Positions 3,169 to 40,614 of a stretch of 64,000 nucleotides of DNA are shown one piece after another (positions within the stretch are counted from its first letter, which is position 1; each line of letters begins with the position of its first letter). The stretch lies in NCBI GenBank assembly GCA_964516765.1, contig CAZEWZ010000007.1:4828-68827 (forward strand), given 5' to 3'. The notes beneath the pieces are model-generated. The model had not been told where the DNA came from, ran no database searches, and worked only from the letters and a program-made list of their open reading frames with translations. This DNA comes from an uncultured Cryomorphaceae bacterium (GTDB lineage Bacteria; Bacteroidota; Bacteroidia; Flavobacteriales; UBA7430). Made by a program: the position numbers and the translations under genes.

Positions 3169-3693
3169 ATGGCATTAGATCTTAAAGAAATTCAAGAACT
3201 TATTAAATTCGTTGCAAAATCTGGAGCTTCCGAAGTTGCTTTAGAGATTGGAGAAATGAAAATATCAATAAAAACACCCCCTAAAAAAGGGAAAAATAGT
3301 ACGGAGACTATTGTTCAGCAGACTCCTCCTTCTCCTATTAATCTAGTGAATTCAGATCCATCTTTAGTTGTTCAACCGATTATTCAGAAAGCTCATGATG
3401 GCACTTTACCTAGTAATGATGAATCTCCTAGTCCAGAAGACTTGAATTCAAAATACATCACTATAAAGTCTCCGATGATTGGAACTTTTTACAGGCAACC
3501 ATCCCCAGACAAGGATTCATTTGTTAGTATTGGTGATGAGGTCAGCGAAGGATCTGTGGTTTGTATTATAGAAGCGATGAAGTTATTTAATGAGATTGAA
3601 TCTGAAATATCAGGTAAAATTATCAAAGTTCTCGTGGATGATATGAGTCCTATTGAATATGATCAGCCTTTATTTTTGGTTGACCCTTCTTAA
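3169..3693 (+). CDS. accB: Acetyl-CoA carboxylase biotin carboxyl carrier protein
   Basis: EAMKLFNEIES biotinylation motif, SPMIGTFY, Pro/Ser-rich linker. Confidence 0.96.
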   Translation: MALDLKEIQELIKFVAKSGASEVALEIGEMKISIKTPPKKGKNSTETIVQQTPPSPINLVNSDPSLVVQPIIQKAHDGTLPSNDESPSPEDLNSKYITIKSPMIGTFYRQPSPDKDSFVSIGDEVSEGSVVCIIEAMKLFNEIESEISGKIIKVLVDDMSPIEYDQPLFLVDPS

Positions 3694-7255: not shown

Positions 7256-8686
7256 ATGGATATAAAAAAAGTTTTAAGTTCTGGATTATCACAAGATTCT
7301 TTTCAGTTAAAAGGTTGGGTTCGATCAAAAAGAGGTAGCAAAAATGTATCCTTTATTGCTTTAAATGATGGATCCACTCTGCATAATATTCAAGTTGTTG
7401 TTGAAGGAGACCATTTTGAGGATACTATAAAGCTTATTCATACTGGAGCAAGTATTTTTGTAGAAGGAACGTTGGTTCACTCTAAGGGTGCTGGTCAGGC
7501 AATTGAATTGTTAGCTCAAAAAATCGAGGTGATTGGTCAAACCAATCCTGAGGAGTATCCCTTACAGCCAAAAAAACATTCATTAGAATTTCTTAGAGAG
7601 AAAGCTCATTTACGATTTCGTACAAATACTTTTGGAGCAATATTCAGAATTCGTCATGCCATGACTTTCGCGATTCATCAGTTTTTTAATAATAAGGGTT
7701 TTTCAAATATTCATACACCTATTATTACTGGTGCAGATTGTGAAGGTGCTGGAGAAATGTTTTCGGTGAGTACTTTAGAAAAGCATAGTCCGCCTCTTAC
7801 GAAAGAAGGAGCAATCGATTACTCCAGAGATTTCTTTGGAAAAGAAACAAATCTTACTGTTTCTGGACAGTTAGAAGCTGAAATGGCTGCCTTAGCGCTG
7901 GGTAAGGTTTATACATTTGGCCCTACATTTAGAGCAGAGAATTCAAATACTTCTAGACATCTAGCAGAGTTCTGGATGGTAGAGCCAGAGGTTGCTTTTG
8001 CCGATTTAAATGACAATATGTCTTTGGCTCAAGAGATGCTTCAGTATTTATGTTCATATGCATTAAAGAATTGTTTAGACGATTTGATTTTTCTTGATCA
8101 TCGTTTGGTCGAAGAGGAAAAACACAAGAAAAAGGAAGAACGACAAGAATTGGGTTTGATTAATAAACTGAAATTTGTGATTGAGAATGATTTTGAGCAC
8201 ATAACTTATACCGAAGCCTTTGATATTCTGAAAAATTCTAAACCTAATAAAAAAAAGAAGTTTAAATATTTAATTCACGAGTGGGGAGCTGATTTTCAAT
8301 CTGAACACGAACGTTTTTTGGTTGAGAAACAGTTTAAAAAACCTGTCATCATTACCGACTACCCAAAAGATATTAAGGCTTTTTATATGAGATTGAATGA
8401 CGACGGAAAGACTGTTCGCGCAATGGATGTACTATTTCCCGGAATTGGAGAAATCATTGGAGGTTCTCAACGAGAAGAGCGTTTCGATGTTTTGCAGTCT
8501 AGAATGCAGGAGATGGATATATCTCAGCATGAACTCTCTTGGTATTTAGATTCCAGAAAGTTCGGAACTGCACCACACAGTGGTTTTGGATTGGGCTTTG
8601 AAAGATTAATTCTATTTGTGACGGGTATGGGAAATATTAGAGATGTGATTCCATTTCCAAGAACTCCAAATAATGCAGATTTTTAA
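7256..8686 (+). CDS. asnS: Asparagine--tRNA ligase
   Basis: OB-fold [53 protein letters not shown]. Confidence 0.97.
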
Positions 8687-10140
8687 TGCTAAAACAGTCC
8701 CTTCAACAAAAAATATCTCAGAAACTTTCTCCACAACAGATAAAGTTAATGAAGTTAATACAACTGCCTACTATTGAGCTAGAGCAGAAAGTAAAGGAAG
8801 AGTTAGAAGAAAATCCTGCTATTGAAGAAGTGATTGATTTCGAAGAGGATATGGAAATCGATTTATTTGATTCCAGAGAAGAGCAGTCTAGAGACGGAAA
8901 TGATGTGAATATAGACGAGTATTTGAGTGATGATGAGATTCCTCGATATCGTCTTGTAGCCAATAACGCATCTCCTGATCAAGAAGATAAGTCAATACCA
9001 TTGGCTATGGGGGTTAGTTCTTTGGATTTTTTAGAGCAACAACTTTCACTTCTAAATTTAGATAATACAAAGTTTCAGATTGGTATGTTCCTAATAGGCT
9101 GTGTATGTGATGAGGGGTACATCAGGAGAGATATTTTTGCTATAGTTGATGACCTTGCCTTTTCTAAAGGTCTAGAAACAAACACAGAAGAAGTTTTAGA
9201 AGTATTAGAAGCAGTTCAAAATCTTGATCCTCCTGGAATTGGAGCTAGATCTTTGCAAGAATGTATTTTGTTGCAACTAGATAGAAAGCCTTTGAATTCG
9301 AGTATTGAAATAGCTAAAGAAGTTGTTTTAAATCATTTTAATGCTCTTTCGAAAAAACATTATGATAAGCTAATTTTAAAGTTATCTATAGATGAATATT
9401 CACTCCAAAGGGCATTAGATGAAATCAGTAAATTAAATCCAAAGCCAGCCGCATTTAGTTCTACTAAAATAGTACAGCACATTATTCCTGATTTTAAAAT
9501 ATCAATTATAGAGGGTCAATTAGATTTAACAATGAATACGGGAATGATACCTGAATTAAAAATCAACAGAGGATACAATGAAATGCTAGAGGCTTATAAA
9601 GAGTCTAAAAATAAGAGCAAATCAAAAGAGCAAAAAGAAGCCATACTTTTTGTGAAACAAAAATTAGATTCTGCTTCGTGGTTCATTGATGCTATTAAAC
9701 AAAGACACAATACATTAATGCTAACGATGACTACTATAATGAATTTTCAAAAGAATTATTTTCTTAGTGGGGATGAGAGTGAACTTAAGCCCATGGTTTT
9801 AAAAGATATAGCTGATATTATTAAGATGGATATTTCTACTATTTCTCGGGTCGCAAATAGTAAATATCTAGACAGTCCGTATGGTACATTTCTGATAAAA
9901 CATTTTTTTTCTGAAGCAATGAAAAATGATCAGGGAAACGACGTCTCTTCTAAAGAAATCAAGATGATTCTTAATGATGTTATCATTAAAGAATCTAAAA
10001 TAAAGCCCTTAACAGATGCTAAGCTAATGACAATATTAAAGAATAGAGGTTATACAATTGCAAGAAGAACGGTTGCTAAATATAGAGAGCAACTTAATAT
10101 TCCTGTTGCCCGTTTAAGAAAAGAGTTGAATTTGAAATAG
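8686..10140 (+). CDS. rpoN: RNA polymerase sigma-54 factor
   Basis: Gln/Leu-rich region I (LKQSLQQKISQKLSPQQIKLM), HTH DISTISRV, RpoN box ARRTVAKYRE; TAATG overlap with asnS. Confidence 0.97.
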   Translation: MLKQSLQQKISQKLSPQQIKLMKLIQLPTIELEQKVKEELEENPAIEEVIDFEEDMEIDLFDSREEQSRDGNDVNIDEYLSDDEIPRYRLVANNASPDQEDKSIPLAMGVSSLDFLEQQLSLLNLDNTKFQIGMFLIGCVCDEGYIRRDIFAIVDDLAFSKGLETNTEEVLEVLEAVQNLDPPGIGARSLQECILLQLDRKPLNSSIEIAKEVVLNHFNALSKKHYDKLILKLSIDEYSLQRALDEISKLNPKPAAFSSTKIVQHIIPDFKISIIEGQLDLTMNTGMIPELKINRGYNEMLEAYKESKNKSKSKEQKEAILFVKQKLDSASWFIDAIKQRHNTLMLTMTTIMNFQKNYFLSGDESELKPMVLKDIADIIKMDISTISRVANSKYLDSPYGTFLIKHFFSEAMKNDQGNDVSSKEIKMILNDVIIKESKIKPLTDAKLMTILKNRGYTIARRTVAKYREQLNIPVARLRKELNLK

Positions 10141-20135: not shown

Positions 20136-20666
20136 ATGAAGAAGCAAAAAGTTTACGATAAAAACTTCGAAATATATCTAGAGAAACATCTTATTAAAGA
20201 GCGTGTCTCTACATTATCTAAAGAAGTTCATCACTTTATGAAGGGTCGAATACCTCACTTTATTGCCGTGCTAGATGGATCTTTTGTTTTTGCATCGGAT
20301 TTACTACGAGCGTATCCTTCTCCCTGTAAAATTTCTTTTGTAAAATTGAAATCCTACCAGGGTTTAAGTAGCTCAGGAGAAGTACATGAGTTAATTGGTT
20401 TAAATGAGATTCCCGAAAAGGAGTGTCTTATTATTTTGGAGGATATTGTAGATACGGGTGCAACTTTAAACAAAATAGACAAAATTTTCAAAAAAAAGGA
20501 ATGGTATATTGCGACTTTATTTTTTAAACCTAAAGCGTATAGCAGTAGTCGTCATATTGACTTTGTAGGATTTGAAATACCCAATGATTTCATAGTTGGT
20601 TATGGCCTTGATTATAATGGTTTTGGACGGAATTTAAAAAATGTTTATCAATTGGCGAAAGCCTAA
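20136..20666 (+). CDS. hpt: Hypoxanthine phosphoribosyltransferase
   Basis: VLDGSFVF, LKSYQG, ILEDIVDTGATL PRPP loop, FIVGYGLDY. Confidence 0.93.
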   Translation: MKKQKVYDKNFEIYLEKHLIKERVSTLSKEVHHFMKGRIPHFIAVLDGSFVFASDLLRAYPSPCKISFVKLKSYQGLSSSGEVHELIGLNEIPEKECLIILEDIVDTGATLNKIDKIFKKKEWYIATLFFKPKAYSSSRHIDFVGFEIPNDFIVGYGLDYNGFGRNLKNVYQLAKA

Positions 20667-20675
20667 ATTAAAAGT

Positions 20676-21251
20676 ATGTTAAATTTAGTTTTATTTGGAC
20701 CTCCCGGGGCGGGTAAAGGAACTCAATCAGCTCGTTTAATAGAAGCTTACAAACTTGTACATCTTTCCACCGGAGATATTTTTCGTTTTAATATCAAAGG
20801 AAGAACAGAATTGGGCCTTATGGCAAAATTATATATCGACAAAGGTGCATTGGTTCCTGACGAAGTAACCATTGCTATGTTGGAATCTGAAGTGAATAAA
20901 AACCCTCAGGCTAAAGGCTTTATTTTTGATGGTTTTCCTCGAACTAATGCACAAGCTAAATCTTTAGATGCATTTTTAATTAGTAAGGGAACATCTATTG
21001 ACGCAATGTTGGCTCTGGAGGTAGAAGAAGAAGAATTAATTTCTAGATTACTTGAAAGGGGTAAGTCAAGTGGAAGGGCAGATGATCAAGATGCCTCAGT
21101 TATTAAAAATCGCATTAATGTGTATGAGAAAGAGACTGCTATTTTGAAGGATTATTATGCTGCTCAAAATAAATTTATTGGAGTTCAAGGTGTGGGATCT
21201 ATTCAAACTATCACCGAAAGTCTTATTAATGCAATTGATTCTCTAAACTAG
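20676..21251 (+). CDS. adk: Adenylate kinase (short LID type)
   Basis: [30 protein letters not shown]. Confidence 0.96.
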
Positions 21252-22249
21252 TGGCAGTTCACGGAAGTAATTTTGTGGATTATGTTAAAATTCATTGTGC
21301 TGCTGGAGATGGAGGTGGAGGGTCTATTCATCTTCACCGTTCTAGACTTACCGCAAAAGGTGGGCCTGATGGAGGAGATGGGGGACGGGGTGGAAACGTT
21401 TATTTACGTGGAAGCGACCAGATGTGGACTCTGCTTCATTTGAAGTATAAAAGACATGTGAAAGCGGGAAGAGGTGGAAACGGTTCTTCAAACAATAGCT
21501 TTGGAGATGACGGTTCCGACCAATATGTTGATGTACCTTTAGGAACAGTAGTTAAGGATGCAGAAACGGGAGAAGTGATGTTTGAAATCACCCAACATGG
21601 CGAGGAAGTGATTGTTCGAAAAGGTGGAATGGGGGGTCGAGGAAATAGTTGGTTTAAGAATTCAGTTCGACAAACACCCCGCTACGCTCAGCCAGGTACT
21701 GAGGGTGAACAAGGTTGGAATATTTTAGAGTTGAAAGTTCTTGCTGATGTAGGTTTAGTGGGGTTTCCTAATGCGGGAAAATCAACACTATTATCTGTTA
21801 TATCTGCTGCCAAACCAAAAATTGCAAATTATCCCTTTACTACTTTAGTTCCTAATTTAGGCATTGTTTCGTACAGAGATAATCGATCTTTTGTAATGGC
21901 TGATATTCCTGGTATTATTGAAGGTGCTAGCGAAGGGAAAGGACTAGGTCTTCGATTTTTACGTCATATAGAAAGAAATTCAACTCTTTTATTTTTGGTG
22001 CCCGCTGACGCAGATGACATTGCTTCTGAGTATAATATTTTACTTAAAGAATTAGAAACTTATAATCCACAACTTTTGGATAAGGATCGAGTATTGGCTA
22101 TTTCCAAGGCCGATATGTTAGACGATGAACTTAAAAGAGAGTTGAAAAAGACGGTTCCCAAAGAAGTGAAATCAGTATTTTTTTCTTCAATTGCTCATCA
22201 AGGTCTTATCGAATTGAAAGATTTAATTTGGACTCAGTTAAATGATTAA
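21251..22249 (+). CDS. obgE: GTPase ObgE (GTG start)
   Basis: Gly-rich OBG fold [36 protein letters not shown]. Confidence 0.96.
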
Positions 22250-22808
22250 TAAGCTTCTTCAATACGACAAAGATTTGTTTCTGCTAATTAATGATTCAGG
22301 AATTGAATTTCTAGATCCCTTTTGGGTCTTTATTTCTAGCACTTTTTCAGGGATACCCATTTTTTTGTGGCTTATTTTTTTGTGTATCAAGAAACTCGGT
22401 AATTCTTTTTGGATAGGTATATTACTTATTTGTACAGTTGTTGGCTTGGCGGATTTTATTTCAGTGCATTTTTTTAAGAACATATTTATGCGTCTAAGGC
22501 CTTGTCATGATCCAGAATTGATCGACCAAATCAGATTGCTAGTTTCAAAGGGGGGTGCCTATGGATTTGTCTCCTCTCATGCTGCCAATTATTTTGCCCT
22601 AGCAGCTATTTCTTCAATACTTTTTTCAGAGCGATCTAGATTTATTTATATCATTTATTCTTGGGCTTTTTTGGTGGCATTTAGTAGAGTTTTTGTCGGT
22701 AAACATTATCCTTTAGATGTTGTTTGTGGAGCTCTTTTAGGAATTATTATTGCTAAATATATCTGGGCCCTATTATTAAAAACGAAAGCAAAAAATTTAT
22801 TTATATGA
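22242..22808 (+). CDS. PAP2-family membrane phosphatase (possible undecaprenyl-PP or lipid phosphatase)
   Basis: K-x6-RP (KNIFMRLRP), FVSSH and [12 protein letters not shown] motifs. Confidence 0.9.
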
Positions 22809-34775: not shown

Positions 34776-37187
34776 TTAGTTTCGTAATGGTTTTCCTTTT
34801 TTTAGCATGTGCTCTATGCGTTCCAATGTTTTTCTTTCACCGGTGAGAGACAAAAAAGCCTCTCTTTCTAAATCTAGAAGATACTGTTCAGTAACCAAAG
34901 TAGGCGAAGATAAGTCCCCTCCCGAAATAACATGAGCAAGTTTTTCGGAGATCAATTTTTCGTGCTCCGTAATAAAGCCAGCATGAAACATAGAATCTGC
35001 CCCCACCATAAAAGATCCGAGAATTTGCTTGCCTAGTACTTTGATTTTTTTCTCTTTTGAAGGAGCATTATATCCTTGTTCAGACATAGAAATGACTGCG
35101 GCTTTTGCATCATAAATTAGTCGTCTTTTATTGATGGAGATTCGATCAAGTCCTTTTCTCAATAAACCTAGTTCCATCGCTTCTTGCGCTGAGGAGGATA
35201 CCTTGGCCATTCCAATATTGAGATACATCTCTCTGATGAGTGGATTTTTAATATCTCCTGGGTTAAATCTTTCAGAGGCTCGCAAAGCCATTTCCTTTGA
35301 TCCACCCCCTCCTGGAATGAGTCCTACTCCCATTTCAACTAATCCCATATAGGTTTCTGCTGCGGCTTGAGTTTGGTCTGCATGCATAGCAATTTCACAT
35401 CCCCCTCCTAATGTCATTCCGTGAGTAGCGACTACTACTGGAGTGTTTGAATAACGAATCATTTGAGTGGTTTGTTGAAAGGCTCGAACGGCATGGTCTA
35501 TCTCTTCGTATTCTTGTTCTATGGCCATCATGAAGATCATGGCTAGGTTGGCTCCTGCAGAAAAGTTTTGTGCTTGGTTGGCAATGACAAGACCTCGGTG
35601 TTCTTTTTCACTCCGTTTAATAGCCTGTTGAATGGCTTGAAGAGTGTCTCCTGATACGGAATTCATTTTTGAATGAAATTCTAGATTAAGGACATCCTCA
35701 CCCAAATCAATGAGGCTGGCAATATTATTTTTCCAAACCGTATTAGATTTTTTAAGTATGTAGAGGTCAATGAGTCCTTTTTGGTCGGGAAGAAGTTTAT
35801 ATTTTTGAGTATCAGAGTCAAAATAATTGAGGGAACCAATATCATTTTTATAAAAGGACTTGTGTCCTTGTACTAGCATTTTTAGAACCCAAGGGGCTAT
35901 CGGTCGGTCTATTTTTTTGGCTTGGCTGCAAGCTTCTTCTAAACCAATTGCATCCCAAATTTCAAAAGGACCCAATTCCCATCCGAAACCTGCTTTCATA
36001 GCTTGGTCAATACGGTAGGTTTCATTTGAGATTTCTGGAATTCTATGGGATACATAGCTAAAAATATCACTGAACATTTCTCGGTAAAATTCTCCTATTG
36101 CTCCCTTGGCATGGTACAATATTTTTATTCTGCTACGAAGATCGTCTATCTCTTTAGCTTGAGTAAGTTCATCGAATTTTACTTGTTCTTGTACTTTGTA
36201 TTCTAAGGTTTTTAGGTTCAAAGAAAGAATGGTTTTTTTACCCTCTGCGTCTTGTATTTTTTTGTAAAAACCTTGTTTTGTTTTGTCCCCAAACCACTTG
36301 TTTTTAAACAAAGATTGTACATATTTTGGCAATAGAAAGGACGATCTTATTTCGTCCTGCTTGCAGTTTTGATAAAGTCCGTCCGCTACATGCATCAGAG
36401 TATCTAATCCTACTACATCGCAAGTTCGGAAAGTAGCTGATTTTGGTCTACCGATTATGGGCCCAGTTAATGTGTCTACGGCTTCTACCGAAAACCCTTT
36501 TTTTTCTACTAGGTGAAAAAGCGATAAGATTCCTGCCACCCCAACACGGTTAGCAATAAATGCGGGTGTATCTTTACATAACACAGTAGTTTTTCCCAGA
36601 TGTCGATCTCCAAATTGCATCATAAAACTAACAATATCTGGTTCGGTACTTGGTCCAGGGATAATTTCCAAAAGATCAAGATATCTTGGGGGATTAAAAA
36701 AATGTGTACCTAAGAAGTGTTCTTTAAAATCATCAGATCGATCTTTTAGCATCATGTGAATAGGTATTCCAGAAGTATTACTGGAAATGATACTGCCTGG
36801 TTTTCGGAGTTCTTCAACTTTTTTAAAGACCTTTTTTTTGATGTCTAATTTTTCAACTACTACCTCTATGATCCAGTCGGCTTGATCGATTTTATCAAAA
36901 TCATCAGATAGATTCCCCGTGCTGATTCGAAGGGCAAACTCTTTTTGGTATAACGCAGATGGCTTAGATTTTAGGGTGTTTTTTAAGGCATTCTTCACAA
37001 TTCTATTTTTGACGATATCTTGCTCTAAATTCAAGCCTTGTTTCTCTTCCGATTCATTTAATTCAAAAGGGGCAATGTCTAGCAAGAGAACTTGGATCCC
37101 AACATTGGCTAAGTGACATGCAATTCGAGATCCCATTATGCCCGAACCAATTACGGCTGCTTTTTGTATTTTTCTGTTATCTTTCAT
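34776..37187 (-). CDS. 3-hydroxyacyl-CoA dehydrogenase / enoyl-CoA hydratase fusion (FadN-like)
   Basis: GSGIMG NAD site, IIEVVVE, SNTSG, HFFNPPRY; C-terminal crotonase domain FSAGANL, GGGCE. Confidence 0.93.
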   Translation of the reverse strand: MKDNRKIQKAAVIGSGIMGSRIACHLANVGIQVLLLDIAPFELNESEEKQGLNLEQDIVKNRIVKNALKNTLKSKPSALYQKEFALRISTGNLSDDFDKIDQADWIIEVVVEKLDIKKKVFKKVEELRKPGSIISSNTSGIPIHMMLKDRSDDFKEHFLGTHFFNPPRYLDLLEIIPGPSTEPDIVSFMMQFGDRHLGKTTVLCKDTPAFIANRVGVAGILSLFHLVEKKGFSVEAVDTLTGPIIGRPKSATFRTCDVVGLDTLMHVADGLYQNCKQDEIRSSFLLPKYVQSLFKNKWFGDKTKQGFYKKIQDAEGKKTILSLNLKTLEYKVQEQVKFDELTQAKEIDDLRSRIKILYHAKGAIGEFYREMFSDIFSYVSHRIPEISNETYRIDQAMKAGFGWELGPFEIWDAIGLEEACSQAKKIDRPIAPWVLKMLVQGHKSFYKNDIGSLNYFDSDTQKYKLLPDQKGLIDLYILKKSNTVWKNNIASLIDLGEDVLNLEFHSKMNSVSGDTLQAIQQAIKRSEKEHRGLVIANQAQNFSAGANLAMIFMMAIEQEYEEIDHAVRAFQQTTQMIRYSNTPVVVATHGMTLGGGCEIAMHADQTQAAAETYMGLVEMGVGLIPGGGGSKEMALRASERFNPGDIKNPLIREMYLNIGMAKVSSSAQEAMELGLLRKGLDRISINKRRLIYDAKAAVISMSEQGYNAPSKEKKIKVLGKQILGSFMVGADSMFHAGFITEHEKLISEKLAHVISGGDLSSPTLVTEQYLLDLEREAFLSLTGERKTLERIEHMLKKGKPLRN

Positions 37188-37614
37188 TTTTCAATTCTTC
37201 AATAGATTCATCCACGGCATCCATGACGGTATAAAATGTCTCTAATTCTTCTAGACTGACTTTTTTTAATACACTCTCATTAAAGGATTTTACTTGATGA
37301 GCTGCAATTTTTCTAAGCCCTAATCCCTTTTCGCTCAGAAAGAGATGTATTTTTCTTTTGTCCGTTTTGTCGACTTTTTTCAAAATTAATCCCGAGCTCC
37401 ACATGCTTTTAAGAATACGAGATAGACTTTTAGATTCCATACCCATTTTGGGTCCTAACTGTGTCGATAGAGTACCTTTTTTTTCTATGTTTAGAAGGGT
37501 AAATCCCATGGAGCTTGTCGAGTCGTGTGCCTGAGCGCTACTGTTGTATAGTCTAGAAATTCCATGCCAAGAAGACCGAATTCGAAAGTCTATGATATGT
37601 TTTTTTTGTTTCAT
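37177..37614 (-). CDS. MarR-family regulator heading the beta-oxidation operon
   Basis: LGPKMGMESKSLSRILKSM HTH, DKRKIHLFLSEKG wing. Confidence 0.88.
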   Translation of the reverse strand: MKQKKHIIDFRIRSSWHGISRLYNSSAQAHDSTSSMGFTLLNIEKKGTLSTQLGPKMGMESKSLSRILKSMWSSGLILKKVDKTDKRKIHLFLSEKGLGLRKIAAHQVKSFNESVLKKVSLEELETFYTVMDAVDESIEELKNER

Positions 37615-37641
37615 TATTTTTTATTGGACGGTTAATCTACG

Positions 37642-37675
37642 AAATAAAAAGGTATGCGCGCATACCTTTTTATTT
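37642..37675. promoter_or_regulatory. Perfect 34-bp palindrome upstream of marR (operator and/or terminator)
   Basis: AAATAAAAAGGTATGCG|CGCATACCTTTTTATTT with no mismatch or spacer, 27 nt from the marR start. Confidence 0.65.
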
Positions 37676-38003
37676 TATTTCAAGAGATCCCCCATATATT
37701 TATTTCTTCAGCTATCAAGGGTTATTTATATACCTAAGTTTTGGGAAAATATTTTTGTGAATGAAAACTATGTCTCCCTCCAACATCTATTTCTTCCTTT
37801 ATGTTTTATCAACACATTTTTCAGGACAAGCTCTGTTCAAATATTGACGATCGGACCATATCGCTTTTAATTATATCGAATATGCTATGGTTTAAAATAA
37901 TACATTTTAATGTACAGACTGCAATTGCCTATTTAGAATTTTCTTATTTATATTTAAGAGAGTATGTCCAATAGCAATTTATATTTCTAATTTTATAATT
38001 GGG

Positions 38004-38551
38004 ATGATGAAGTTGTTGGTTCGATTGCAATGATAATTTGATTAATTTTCGCACACAGAGACCTACTTCTAATATAATAAATGTGAAGATATTTTTAACA
38101 GTATGTGGTTCGGTTTTGACAATAGAGCATGTGTTGATGCGCATTCTTGTGTTTATCTAAACGGTATAAATCTTCGGAGAGAGGTGTATTATAGATTAGA
38201 TGCATGCCCTTATTGCTCTTATGAATCATGTGAAATTATTTGCATATCTATGTCTTGCCAATAGCAGAATGTGACAGCCTTCTTTTTATAGAAAAGCAAT
38301 GTTGCCCCATTTGTCTAGAATATCCGGTTTATGAAGGAATTGATATTGTCGTTTCAAATGGTTGGAACATTATTGGTTTTTCATGTAGTGAAAACACAGA
38401 AGCGATAGATGCTTTTTAGTCCATTCAAGATGTAATTATTATAACTAATAATGCAGAAGGCAATGTCTGTCTTCTAGATTTCAACTTAAATGGGATTAGA
38501 TATCTAATAAAGGTTTCAGCGGTAATTAATAGTTACAATATTTGAGATTAA
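38004..38551 (+). pseudogene. Decayed gene for an exported Cys-rich protein with a VWC-like module and an uncharacterised C-terminal domain
   Basis: Stitched frames: frameshifted signal-like start at 38004; 38103-38258 CVYLNG...DACPYCSYESCEIICISMSC; frameshift; 38258-38545 PIAECDSLLFIEKQCCPIC...GWNIIGFSCSENTEAIDAF*SIQDVII...YLIKVSAVINSYNI*; internal stop at 38417-38419. Confidence 0.7.
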
Positions 38552-38576
38552 TCTGGGTTTTTTGTTTAAAAAACAA

Positions 38577-39746
38577 TTATCGCTTAAGCATTTTTAAGTG
38601 GGCCATATTATTGTTTTCGTCCATAATATCTACGCAATAGAATCCCTCAGGAACATCAGACAAGGATAGGTTTGTGAAATTCGTTTCACTCATAATTATT
38701 TGCCCATTTATATTTCGAATCTTTATGCTAATAATTTTTTTGGAATGCGAAATATGTAATATATCTTTTGTGGGATTAGGATATAAAATGGGTGAAGGAT
38801 AATCAATATTTGAATGGCCGACCTCGTAACAGTCTAAATTTTTATAAAGTTTTTCAGTCACAAAGTCAACCATAAGTTCTTCGAATGGCCCGCCATATTC
38901 CCATGGAACATGCCCTGCGCCTTCAAAGAGTAAATGATGAAAGTTCTCAAAATTCACATCATTGGAATGTTCTAGTATAGCTCCTCCTCCGCATAGTTGT
39001 GGTAGTACGGATATTCCTAATGGTTGTCCACACATATATGGAACCGTTGGATCTTGGTCGCCATGGCAAGAGATAAGAAGCTTATCAAAATCACTGGTTT
39101 CAATAAAATCTAAATCGGCAATTCCTCCGGCTAAGCTTATGGCTCCACGAATTTCACTAGAAAACTCCTCATTTCCACTATCTCCATAAATACCTCCATT
39201 GTTATTAATTGCATTCAATAAGTCAGGATCTGAAATATCTTCTAGATCCATAAAAGCTACATGGATAGCAATCACTGCACCGGCCGAATTTCCACCAAAA
39301 TATATTTGGTTAGTATCAATTCTATATGGGTTTCCCTCTGTAATCGTTTTTCTGAAATAACGAACTGAAGCCCTACCATCACTTAACGCTCTTGCAACTC
39401 CATTTAATGCTCCGCTAGCAGTTACCAATTCCGTGAATGACATTAGTCTATAGGAAATAGAGGCAACAACGTATCCTTGTTTCGAAAATTTTTCTGCCAA
39501 TGAGACCATACTTGGATTTGTTCTCACACCCGCAATAAAAGATCCTCCATGAGCTAAAATAAGCAAAGGTCTATTTTCTAGTTCATCTCCTTCAGGTTCA
39601 TAAATATCTACTTGTAGATTATGAACCTCTGAGTATGTTTGTGTAGAAACATTAAATTGATTGAATATTTCTTCCACATATCGCCCATCGCATTGGGCTT
39701 GGATAAAATATACGGGACAAAGAAAAATGATGAGTATTTTTTTCAT
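38577..39746 (-). CDS. T9SS-secreted alpha/beta-hydrolase (carboxylesterase/lipase-like; start likely 39746)
   Basis: Signal MKKILIIFLCPVYFIQAQ; HGGSF oxyanion motif, GNSAG nucleophile elbow, HGDQDPTVP, GHVPW; LYPNPTKD type A CTD. Confidence 0.88.
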   Translation of the reverse strand: MKKILIIFLCPVYFIQAQCDGRYVEEIFNQFNVSTQTYSEVHNLQVDIYEPEGDELENRPLLILAHGGSFIAGVRTNPSMVSLAEKFSKQGYVVASISYRLMSFTELVTASGALNGVARALSDGRASVRYFRKTITEGNPYRIDTNQIYFGGNSAGAVIAIHVAFMDLEDISDPDLLNAINNNGGIYGDSGNEEFSSEIRGAISLAGGIADLDFIETSDFDKLLISCHGDQDPTVPYMCGQPLGISVLPQLCGGGAILEHSNDVNFENFHHLLFEGAGHVPWEYGGPFEELMVDFVTEKLYKNLDCYEVGHSNIDYPSPILYPNPTKDILHISHSKKIISIKIRNINGQIIMSETNFTNLSLSDVPEGFYCVDIMDENNNMAHLKMLKR

Positions 39747-39844
39747 ATTTATTAAATTAATTTGCAAAAAATTAACGTAAAAAAATAAGAATTTGCGACG
39801 TTTTTTGTTGAAAGTCAAGATCATCTTAATTGAGCCATCAAATA

Positions 39845-39860
39845 ATATATATATATATAT
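39845..39860. repeat. (AT)8 dinucleotide microsatellite in a divergent intergenic region
   Basis: ATATATATATATATAT read directly. Confidence 0.8.
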
Positions 39861-40047
39861 TCTACTATAAAAGTTATATTTATTTAATATAATTTAAAAA
39901 TATTTAATATTGATGTTTTTTGAGAGAATTAAACTAAAAAATATTTTGCAAAAATTAAAATAAAGACAGCGCCTAGATTCCGTGGTTTTTTCTTGTGACC
40001 AGTAATACGGTATGATATTTGAACAATTGGTTAAAGAAATAAGCTAT

Positions 40048-40614
40048 ATGAAAAATATCTTTGCTATTGTAACTTTGTTTTCTACCTTCATTATCTCAGC
40101 ACAACCCTCAGATACTATAGAAATCCCAAATTCTTATTGCGATTCTATTGTATTAAATCCTATACTTCCATTGTATGGAAATTTGGAAGATGATTTCCTC
40201 TTAGTGGGACTAGAAACATACTTTACTGACTACTCAATTTCTTATGCGGGTTTAATGCTCGTAAACTATTTAGGTGACACTATTGCAATTGAAACCCTCA
40301 ACTCTGCCGGTAATGTATATTCCATAGGACCTAATATGTCAGAAGAGAGACAATTAATGTTGATGGAAGATTTAGTGTTTCCTTTCACGGGAGAATTGTG
40401 TATAGTTGAAGGTTTATTTGCGGGAAATCCCAATATCGTTTGTTCTTATCCAGTAAATTGGAATTTTCTTGGATTAAACGAAATGCAGAATAAACCTAGG
40501 AAACTCATAAAAATGATTGATGTTTTAGGGAATGAGAAAGAAAATCATCAGTCAGGAAAAATCTTATTCTACCTTTATGATAATGGGGAAAGTAGGAAGC
40601 GTTACAAAATATAA
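40048..40614 (+). CDS. Exported hypothetical protein with a short T9SS-like C-terminal tail (start likely 40048)
   Basis: Signal MKNIFAIVTLFSTFIISAQ; tail RKLIKMIDVLGNE...ILFYLYDNGESRKRYKI. Confidence 0.7.
   Translation: MKNIFAIVTLFSTFIISAQPSDTIEIPNSYCDSIVLNPILPLYGNLEDDFLLVGLETYFTDYSISYAGLMLVNYLGDTIAIETLNSAGNVYSIGPNMSEERQLMLMEDLVFPFTGELCIVEGLFAGNPNIVCSYPVNWNFLGLNEMQNKPRKLIKMIDVLGNEKENHQSGKILFYLYDNGESRKRYKI

What the first reader, a model, noticed from the sequence alone, without database searches (positions are those of the whole stretch)
38004..38551. Hidden pseudogene carrying a von Willebrand factor type C (VWC)-like cysteine pattern
Seen: joining two frames across a one-base gap at about 38258 gives C-x18-C-x2-C-x-(Y)-x2-(C)-x3-C-x4-C-P-x3-C-x9-CCPIC. 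From established knowledge this follows the VWC spacing ending in CCPxC, a module typical of animal extracellular proteins (vWF, chordin, collagens), with one Cys apparently mutated TGT to TAT. It is followed by a GWNIIGFSC...AF*SIQ...YLIKVS domain resembling C-termini I recall from marine Flavobacteriales proteins (unverified). Further lesions: stop at 38417, probable TGT to TGA at 38543, and a frameshifted signal peptide (MMKLLV-SIAMII-LIFA) from 38004. The ORF track misses it entirely.
Basis: partly seen in the sequence, partly recalled or inferred. Interest (0 to 1): 0.65.

Follow-up and report, generated by a model that had tools for sequence, protein, structure and literature searches.

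The report
Dead bacterial gene with VWC domain
The flagged stretch is the decaying remnant of a gene for a secreted, cysteine-rich protein of uncultured ocean Flavobacteriales that carried a von Willebrand factor type C domain, a module usually regarded as animal-specific; intact relatives exist in related bacteria, but this copy has been dead for a long time.

Summary
Window 37761-38551 (+) is a pseudogene, longer than flagged. Its order is: start codon and decayed signal peptide, a GCTD/NYN linker, a WDGGDC cysteine module, a 10-Cys VWC domain, and an ~85-aa C-terminal "GW" domain.

It has at least 9 stop codons, 4 frame-shifting indels and a 21-nt deletion.

- **Intact homologues:** they exist in marine Flavobacteriales MAGs and single-cell genomes. 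They pass Pfam's VWC cut-off (31-54 bits against 27.6). A model of one finds collagen IIA and CCN3 VWC structures as its best PDB matches.
Cys4 TGT to TAT, TAG at 38417 and TGA at 38543 replacing the terminal Cys are each borne out by a less decayed relative (L042).
the "signal peptide at 38004" is part of the WDGGDC module read in the wrong frame.
- **Neutral decay:** against L042, divergence is equal at all three codon positions (24/21/22%) and matches third-position divergence of the flanking genes. Lesions differ between lineages, and one relative (L043) has deleted the relic.
- **Not an artefact:** contigs from three separate studies carry the same sequence.

The locus has no function. 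The interest lies in the gene family.

The parts
37761..37841 (+). Probable original start codon (ATG 37761) and decayed signal peptide, MKTMSPSNIYFFLYVLSTHFSGQALFK, in frame class 0.
   Evidence: Inference from the sequence. The stretch aligns with the L042 copy (..IKVFSPAYIYVLLSALPIHILGQSKFLY). L043 keeps the ATG and L042 has ATA there. Its shape resembles family signal peptides such as MKKFLCVLFTVVLLFPCYMHSQ. No statistical test was run.
37842..37943 (+). Remnant of the GCTD...NYN...DDGSCEWLDC linker repeat, read as Y*RSDHIAFNYIEYAMV*NNTF*CTDCN. In-frame stops are TGA 37845, TAA 37893 and TAA 37908. A 7-nt deletion near 37944 shifts the frame.
   Evidence: Local alignment to the same segment of P0026 and P0179 beat 3000 of 3000 shuffles. 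P0182 gave p of about 0.001 and P0004 about 0.002. The 7-nt gap relative to L042 is seen.
37946..38135 (+). WDGGDC cysteine module, which has no Pfam family. It is broken across three frames: 37946-38011 (IYI*ESMSNSNLYF*FYNWDDE), 38014-38049 (CWFDCNDNLINF) and 38049-38135 (SHTETYF*YNKCEDIFNSMWFGFDNRAC). Stops are TAA 37955, 37988 and 38070. There are two 1-nt frameshifts, at about 38006-38013 and about 38044-38050.
   Evidence: tblastn of P0004 residues 157-262, and of P0026, P0005, P0003, P0014 and P0011, places these segments. L042 has sense codons at all three stops and is in frame at both shifts. Pfam finds no LNR or other family for the module.
38148..38314 (+). VWC domain remnant. Cysteine codons: C1 38148, C2 38205, C3 38214, C4 changed to Tyr (TAT 38220-38222), C5 38241, C6 38256, C7 38270, C8 38300, C9 38303, C10 38312. 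There is an extra Cys at 38229. A 1-nt deletion at about 38263 creates TAG 38262-38264.
   Evidence: Pfam VWC scores 20 bits with E = 8.5e-4 over profile positions 5-57 of 57. L042 has TGT at C4, and L001-4 and L042 are in one frame across 38263.
38336..38551 (+). C-terminal GW domain remnant: GIDIVVSNGWNIIGFSCSENTEAIDAF*SIQD...NGI^RYLIKVSAVINSYNI*D, then the original stop TAA 38549-38551. Lesions are TAG 38417-38419, a 21-nt deletion at 38499/38500 (loss of GDLERGY-type residues), and TGA 38543-38545 in place of the terminal Cys.
   Evidence: A family CTD HMM hits the two halves with E = 3e-9 and 4.8e-8, and they are the only hits in the window. L042 has TAC, the extra 21 nt, and TGC-TAT-TAA at the corresponding places.
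38577..39746 (-). Neighbouring intact BD-FAE esterase with a T9SS type A C-terminal domain. It converges on the relic, with 25 nt between its stop codon and the relic's original stop. It is context only, not part of the relic. The true start is probably the internal ATG, giving 389 aa.
   Evidence: Pfam hits BD-FAE and Por_Secre_tail. Homologues are 389-392 aa. Some orthologues carry the GW tail instead: L025 and P0122.

Best explanation
Window 37761-38551 (+) is a non-functional relic of a small gene of about 265 codons. The gene belonged to a large family of Sec-exported, disulfide-rich modular proteins of uncultured marine Flavobacteriales.

**The ancestral product.** Its order was: signal peptide, a GCTD/NYN linker, a WDGGDC cysteine module, a canonical 10-cysteine VWC domain, and an ~85-residue terminal GW domain (GWNMIGF...NGIGDLERGYGYLIKV...NYNIC[D/E]-stop).

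**When it died.** The gene stopped being selected at or before the split between this lineage and relatives that now differ by about 10-15% in DNA. Since then each lineage has gathered its own stops, frameshifts and deletions at the neutral rate. One lineage has deleted almost all of it.

**What is shown.** Homology, domain order, the lesions, neutral divergence, independent decay and deletion, and that the sequence is real.

**What is inferred.** The start codon and signal peptide. The first disabling event could not be identified, because no lesion is shared by all lineages.

**Function of the intact ancestor.** This is unknown. My inference is an exported, disulfide-stabilised binding or spacer protein at the cell surface, in which VWC acts as a protein-binding module, as it does in animals.
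For: **1. Homology over the whole tail.**
- tblastn maps P0004 residues 157-371 onto four consecutive frame segments.
- The stitched translation against P0134 gives 43% identity over 209 aa, and P0004 and P0122 give 40%.
- The upstream linker remnant is significant against shuffles.

**2. Intact relatives have a true VWC.** Pfam scores are above the cut-off. The AlphaFold model (pLDDT 81) has as best PDB matches 5nir and 1u5m (collagen IIA VWC), 5nb8 (CCN3 VWC) and 3bk3_C (crossveinless-2 VWC1).

**3. The family is bacterial.**
- 29 loci lie in Flavobacteriales and Cryomorphaceae MAGs and single-cell genomes, on contigs of up to 617 kb.
- P0135 sits in a 112-kb contig that shares the hpt-adk-obg block with this window.

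**4. Neutral evolution, window against the syntenic L042.**
- The relic is 77.7% identical with 94 gap columns. Six flanking genes are 88-93% identical with 0 gaps.
- Divergence by codon position is 24.3/21.3/22.1% in the relic. In the flanking genes it is 3-10%, 1-7.5% and 16-23%.

**5. Lineage-specific lesions.**
- TAG 38417 and TGA 38543 are shared with L001-4 and absent from L042. The 21-nt deletion is shared with L001-4 and also with L043, and is absent from L042.
- L042 has its own 62-nt and 21-nt deletions and has lost the ATG.
- L001-4 have a 2-nt insertion near 38180.
- The window alone has the 1-nt deletion at 38263.

**6. Deletion.** L043 lacks window 37765-38470.

**7. Replicated.** The same sequence is present in contigs of independent runs.
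Against: - No single inactivating lesion shared by all lineages was found. Inactivation before their split therefore rests only on the codon-position pattern.
- The start codon and signal peptide assignment at 37761 is a judgement from sequence, with no statistical test.
- The repaired VWC is itself below Pfam's cut-off (20 against 27.6 bits), as expected after decay.
- Transcription of the relic was not examined.
Confidence: 0.93

Rival explanations
1. The relic is the discarded former C-terminal tail of the neighbouring esterase. An inversion between two convergent genes swapped their 3' ends. The esterase gained a T9SS C-terminal domain, and its old WDGGDC-VWC-GW tail was stranded on the opposite strand.
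For: - Orthologous esterase catalytic domains elsewhere carry exactly this kind of tail. P0122 is esterase + linkers + WDGGDC + VWC + GW, and its tail is 79% identical to the P0004 tail. L025 from UBA6772 is esterase + linker + GW.
- The relic's 3' end lies 25 nt from the esterase's 3' end, in convergent orientation.
- Only about 3 of the 122 tail-family proteins are BD-FAE esterases, so adjacency by chance is not expected.
Against: - The relic has its own probable start codon, signal peptide remnant and linker. It looks like a complete separate gene.
- Nearly all listed esterase homologues, down to about 40% identity, carry the T9SS C-terminal domain. That is the ancestral state. The GW-tailed forms are a minority.
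- More distant esterase orthologues in another genomic context have no tail remnant downstream.
Confidence: 0.04
2. The gene is functional and is read through by recoding: programmed frameshifting, stop-codon readthrough or an alternative genetic code.
For: None beyond the fact that the homology runs across the lesions.
Against: - All three stop codons occur inside the relic (TAA, TAG, TGA), along with at least four frameshifts in both directions and a 21-nt loss of invariant residues.
- The flanking genes read normally with table 11.
- Divergence is equal at the three codon positions.
- A relative has deleted the stretch.
Confidence: 0.01
3. It is an artefact: an assembly or sequencing error, a chimeric contig with eukaryotic DNA, or a chance cysteine pattern in AT-rich spacer DNA.
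For: The source is a low-coverage metagenome, and VWC is typical of animals.
Against: - Identical sequence occurs in contigs from three studies.
- Six other assemblies hold related copies in the same bacterial synteny.
- Family members occur in single-cell genomes and on long bacterial contigs.
- E-values go down to 1e-22 against 1.84 billion proteins.
Confidence: 0.01

Closest known systems
Animal VWC / chordin-like cysteine-rich repeats (Pfam PF00093), for example collagen IIA VWC (PDB 5nir, 1u5m), CCN3 VWC (5nb8) and crossveinless-2 VWC1 (3bk3)
   Same: - The ten-cysteine spacing ending in CCxxC is the same.
- Intact bacterial homologues score 31-54 bits, above Pfam's cut-off.
- They share 32-35% identity over 61-65 aligned columns with the solved collagen IIA and CCN3 modules (24% with crossveinless-2 VWC1), which are the best structural matches.
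   Different: - The host is a bacterium. VWC has been listed among domains specific to opisthokonts or metazoans (PMC2770060).
- The domain sits between a WDGGDC cysteine module and a bacterial GW domain, not in animal matrix or BMP-regulator architectures.
- No ligand is known.
- The copy in this window is dead.
The unnamed 'GW-tail' family of secreted proteins of marine Flavobacteriales. In databases they appear as hypothetical proteins or as 'BPTI/Kunitz-type proteinase inhibitor domain-containing protein'.
   Same: The relic has the same module order as P0134, P0004 and P0122 (linker, WDGGDC, VWC, GW) and the same terminal ...NYNIC[D/E]-stop.
   Different: - Intact members carry varied heads: dioxygenase-like, esterase, PHB depolymerase, sulfatase, thioredoxin, Kazal, Kunitz, thyroglobulin-1 and Lcl_C.
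- The relic appears to have had none.
- The relic is disabled.
T9SS type A C-terminal sorting domain (Pfam PF18962, TIGR04183)
   Same: - It occupies the same extreme C-terminal position on exported proteins of the same organisms.
- Orthologous esterases carry either one or the other.
   Different: - There is no sequence match to PF18962 or to any NCBIfam model.
- The GW domain is predicted as a mixed alpha/beta fold with no significant PDB neighbour, not the beta-sandwich of T9SS C-terminal domains.
- The GW domain also occurs internally in proteins that end in a true T9SS C-terminal domain.
Unitary pseudogenes of free-living bacteria
   Same: It shows multiple stops and frameshifts, substitution at the neutral rate, lineage-specific lesions, and final loss by deletion.
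   Different: It has persisted over roughly 20% neutral divergence in an otherwise gene-dense genome.

Membership tests
VWC (Pfam PF00093) | Ten-cysteine pattern C1...C2xxC3xC4...C5...C6...C7...C8C9xxC10 | tested here: met
   The relic keeps 9 of 10 cysteines at the expected spacing. C4 is TAT, and relative L042 has TGT at that place. Intact homologues have all ten.
VWC (Pfam PF00093) | Profile score at or above the gathering cut-off (27.6 bits), for the relic itself | tested here: not met
   The repaired peptide scores 20.0 bits with E = 8.5e-4 over profile positions 5-57 of 57. This is expected for a decayed copy.
VWC (Pfam PF00093) | Profile score at or above the gathering cut-off, for intact homologues of the relic | tested here: met
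   P0004 43.4, P0135 42.8, P0134 39.2, P0026 38.6, P0012 31.5, P0041 37.7 and P0062 54.6 bits.
VWC (Pfam PF00093) | VWC fold | tested here: met
   In the AlphaFold model of P0004 residues 222-371 (pLDDT 81), the top Foldseek PDB matches are 5nir, 5nb8, 9oz8, 1u5m and 3bk3_C, with probability 0.6-1.0. The E-values are only 5e-3 to 0.6, because the domain is small.
VWC (Pfam PF00093) | Binding of BMP/TGF-beta-type ligands, or oligomerisation | not testable with these tools
GW-tail family of marine Flavobacteriales (unnamed) | C-terminal domain with GWNMIGF, NAYLP, NGIGDLERGYGYLIKV and terminal NYNIC[D/E] | tested here: met
   The relic has GWNIIGF, NVCLL and NGI^RYLIKV, with a 21-nt deletion, and SYNI-TGA-D-TAA at the end. 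HMM E-values are 3e-9 and 4.8e-8. The exhaustive search gave E = 8.6e-15 to P0003.
T9SS type A C-terminal domain (PF18962 / TIGR04183), considered for the GW domain | Match to the sorting-domain profile and a beta-sandwich fold | tested here: not met
   No Pfam or NCBIfam hit at E up to 10. The predicted fold is alpha/beta.
Notch/LIN-12 repeat (LNR), considered for the WDGGDC module | Match to the Pfam LNR profile | tested here: not met
   No such hit at E up to 10. The resemblance (C...C...WDGGDC) was only a recollection.
Pseudogene | Disabling lesions, loss of codon-position bias in substitutions, and presence/absence among relatives | tested here: met
   At least 9 stops, 4 frameshifts and a 21-nt deletion. 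Divergence by codon position is 24/21/22%, against 3-10/1-7.5/16-23% in the flanking genes. The stretch is deleted in L043.

The most novel reading that the evidence does not exclude
The terminal GW domain may be a second export or surface-anchoring signal of marine Flavobacteriales, used in place of the T9SS type A C-terminal domain.

Two observations suggest this. Orthologous esterase catalytic domains end either in a T9SS C-terminal domain (this window and most homologues) or in a GW tail (L025, P0189, P0201, P0122). The GW tail is also appended to many unrelated exported enzymes and to animal-type cysteine modules (VWC, Kazal, Kunitz, thyroglobulin-1).

On this reading the relic marks birth-and-death turnover in that secretome. 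The VWC module would have entered the lineage by transfer from a marine animal, or would predate animals.
Probability: 0.15. Interest if true: 0.7.

Novelty: new variant of a known kind. Interest (0 to 1): 0.42.

Why it matters
VWC has been treated as a hallmark of animal extracellular proteins (PMC2770060). My literature searches found no description of bacterial VWC domains.

This locus adds three things:
- **Independent evidence of bacterial residence.** It is a decayed copy, so it cannot be a gene-calling or annotation artefact. It shows that VWC-bearing genes have long resided in uncultured ocean Flavobacteriales genomes.
- **Gene turnover.** The family undergoes ordinary birth and death. 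One relic is caught at three or four stages of decay in natural populations.
- **Module swapping.** The tail modules are exchanged among different exported enzymes, including the orthologues of the gene next door.

The relic itself has no function, so the practical value lies in pointing to the intact family.

Tried and rejected
**Searches that found nothing or were unavailable**
The window's own genome could not be searched for intact paralogues or for PF00093.
- The word-indexed protein search with the stitched peptide found nothing.
- The first genome-contig scan with single-sequence patterns found nothing. The exhaustive HMMER search and a profile-based scan then succeeded.
- No other copy of the GW domain lies in the 64-kb window.

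**Ideas tested and dropped**
- *The relic is 5'-truncated.* Dropped after the linker remnant and a start codon with signal-peptide-like stretch were found upstream.
- *The relic is the esterase's old tail, moved by inversion.* Mostly rejected, because T9SS tails are the norm among esterase homologues and the relic has its own 5' end.
- *The WDGGDC module is an LNR repeat.* There is no Pfam support.

**The GW domain**
- It has no Pfam or NCBIfam family.
- It has no significant PDB fold neighbour. HPr-like matches had E > 1.
- A weak profile match to designed 'Pizza' NHL-type propeller blades (E = 2e-4 overall, with each repeat insignificant) was judged uninformative.

**Other checks**
- Rfam and promoter/terminator scans of 37500-38700 showed nothing beyond the known palindrome.
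- Literature searches for bacterial VWC returned only unrelated papers. In soil studies 'VWC' means volumetric water content.

Full report
**What is in the sequence**

Between marR (37177-37614, minus strand) and a BD-FAE esterase with a T9SS sorting domain (38577-39824, minus strand) lies 960 bp with no long ORF, in an otherwise tightly packed window. Its G+C is 30%, against 35% for the whole window.

- A Cys-rich run lies in one frame (38049-38264).
- It continues one base out of frame into ...CCPIC... and GWNIIGFSC...AF-TAG-SIQ...YLIKVS...SYNI-TGA.

**It is homologous to real proteins**

- A word-indexed search with the stitched peptide found nothing.
- An exhaustive HMMER search of 1.84 billion representatives with the 3' half (TAG read through) gave 120 hits, 14 of them below 1e-10.
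- The best hit, P0002, is a 78-aa ORF from four short ocean-metagenome contigs that hold the same relic at 94-95% DNA identity. It reads SISCQEPECDSL in one frame across the junction. The window's frame change at about 38263 is therefore a 1-nt deletion.
- The other hits are intact proteins of 160-600 aa ending in a conserved domain: GWNMIGF...IQDKIVIAKD..GNAYLP..FNGIGDLERGYGYLIKV...NYNIC[D/E]-stop.

**VWC membership**

- The repaired peptide matches Pfam VWC over nearly the whole profile but below the cut-off: 20 bits, E = 8.5e-4.
- Intact homologues pass the 27.6-bit cut-off: P0004 43.4, P0135 42.8, P0134 39.2, P0026 38.6, P0012 31.5, P0062 54.6 bits.
- An AlphaFold model of the P0004 tail (pLDDT 81) has as best PDB matches the VWC modules of collagen IIA (5nir, 1u5m), CCN3 (5nb8), NEL and crossveinless-2. 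Probabilities reach 1.0 and identity is 32-35% for the collagen IIA and CCN3 modules. E-values are modest because the domain is small.
- The relic keeps nine of the ten cysteines. The fourth is TAT.

**True extent and lesions**

tblastn of intact homologues maps P0004 residues 157-371 onto four successive frame segments:

| Window segment | Frame class |
|---|---|
| 37946-38005 | 2 |
| 38014-38043 | 1 |
| 38049-38261 | 0 |
| 38258-38542 | 2 |

This corresponds to NWDGGDCV / CVFDCNDNLM of a cysteine module upstream of VWC. Pfam has no family for that module.
- Further upstream, Y*RSDHIAFNYIEYAMV*NNTF*CTDC (37842-37922) aligns with the family's linker YGCTDESASNYVSYATEDDGSCEWLDC. It beat 3000 of 3000 shuffles for two of six family queries and gave p of about 0.001-0.002 for two more.
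- This linker is preceded from ATG 37761 by a signal-peptide-like stretch, which is my inference.
- The relic is therefore a whole small gene, 37761-38551.

Lesions found:
- **Stops:** 37845, 37893, 37908, 37955, 37988, 38070, 38262, 38417 and 38543.
- **Frameshifts:** near 37944 (7 nt), 38006-38013, 38044-38050 and 38263.
- **In-frame deletion:** 21 nt at 38499/38500.

**Relatives show decay in progress**

A metagenome scan with the esterase found two syntenic relatives.

*L042* (85-91% identical in the flanking genes) keeps the relic, and its lesions differ:

| Window lesion | State in L042 |
|---|---|
| TAA 37955 | CAA |
| TAA 37988 | GAA |
| TAA 38070 | CAC |
| TAT 38220 (Cys4) | TGT |
| TAG 38417 | TAC |
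| 21-nt deletion at 38499/38500 | The 21 nt are present |
| TGA 38543 | TGC-TAT-TAA |

L042 also has its own 62-nt and 21-nt deletions, small indels, and ATA at the start codon.

*L043* has deleted window 37765-38470.

Against L042:
- The relic is 77.7% identical with 94 gap columns. Six flanking genes are 88-93% identical with no gaps.
- Divergence by codon position is 24/21/22% in the relic. In the flanking genes it is 3-10%, 1-7.5% and 16-23%.

The relic has therefore evolved neutrally for essentially the whole divergence. I found no lesion shared by all lineages, so the first hit is unknown.

**Not an artefact**

Contigs of runs from three studies cover 37900-38600, or most of it, with no gaps and 0-2 base differences.

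**The family**

- A profile scan of species-representative genomes found 29 loci. All are in marine uncultured Flavobacteriales or Cryomorphaceae MAGs and single-cell genomes, often several per genome.
- P0135 (VWC plus GW tail) lies in a 112-kb contig whose hpt-adk-obg block is collinear with window 20136-22808.
- The GW tail is attached to many heads: dioxygenase-like, BD-FAE esterase, PHB depolymerase, sulfatase, thioredoxin, Lcl_C, Kazal, Kunitz and thyroglobulin-1.
- The GW domain also occurs inside T9SS cargo proteins that carry VWC and Kazal.
- It has no Pfam or NCBIfam model and no significant fold neighbour in the PDB.

**The neighbouring esterase**

- Its orthologues L025 and P0122 carry a GW tail. 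In P0122 the tail has the whole WDGGDC-VWC-GW arrangement.
- I tested the idea that the relic is the esterase's former tail, moved by inversion.
- Nearly all listed esterase homologues carry the T9SS tail. Distant orthologues have no tail remnant downstream. The relic has its own 5' end.
- I keep this idea at about 4%.
- The interchange of T9SS and GW tails on one catalytic domain remains a useful lead to the GW domain's role.

**Comparison with what is known**

- VWC has been listed among domains specific to opisthokonts or metazoans (PMC2770060).
- My searches found no paper on bacterial VWC.
- Earlier notes of this scan report intact VWC, Kazal and Kunitz proteins in such flavobacteria. I treated these as leads, and my own searches agree with them.

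**Verdict**

This is a real, long-dead pseudogene of an unstudied bacterial family that carries a true VWC domain. The locus is functionless. The family is of moderate to high interest.

**Limits**

- No phylogeny against animal VWC was made.

Noticed in passing
window 39745-40557 (orphan 200-aa gene at 40012-40614): This stretch is missing from both syntenic relatives. L042 has 68 nt and L043 about 138 nt in its place. The orphan exported-protein gene is therefore an insertion in this lineage, or has been lost in both others.
   Followed up: partly
window 38577-39824 (-): The esterase ORF is listed as 415 aa, but its homologues are 389-392 aa and begin at the internal MKKILIIF... The true start is probably the ATG at 39746-39744.
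   Followed up: partly
window 38577-39824 (-); L025 1-1221; P0122; P0266: One esterase catalytic domain occurs with at least three different C-terminal ends in related bacteria. These are the T9SS type A sorting domain (most homologues), the GW tail with or without VWC, and an Lcl_C-containing tail.
   Followed up: partly
window 37642-37675: The 34-bp perfect palindrome upstream of marR is 94% conserved in L042 and L043, while the surrounding spacer is only about 73% identical. In L043 it survives next to the deletion. This points to selection on it, as a MarR operator or a terminator.
   Followed up: partly
L011 3323-8996: A relative's contig carries three GW-domain matches within 6 kb (3368-3622, 7539-7880 and 8478-8993). 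They lie in the 346-aa protein, the 371-aa protein and P0135 (with VWC). A PHB-depolymerase-type esterase sits between the first two, and a pirin gene follows on the opposite strand.
   Followed up: no
P0041, P0062 (metagenome proteins): Large T9SS cargo proteins of 1134-1628 aa combine VWC, Kazal, pacifastin-like modules and internal GW domains with a true T9SS C-terminal domain.
   Followed up: no
P0134 (L045 67-1359): The closest intact homologue of the relic has an N-terminal intradiol-dioxygenase-like domain (Pfam Dioxygenase_C, 84 bits) fused to the linker-WDGGDC-VWC-GW tail. This is an odd partner for an exported cysteine-rich tail.
   Followed up: no
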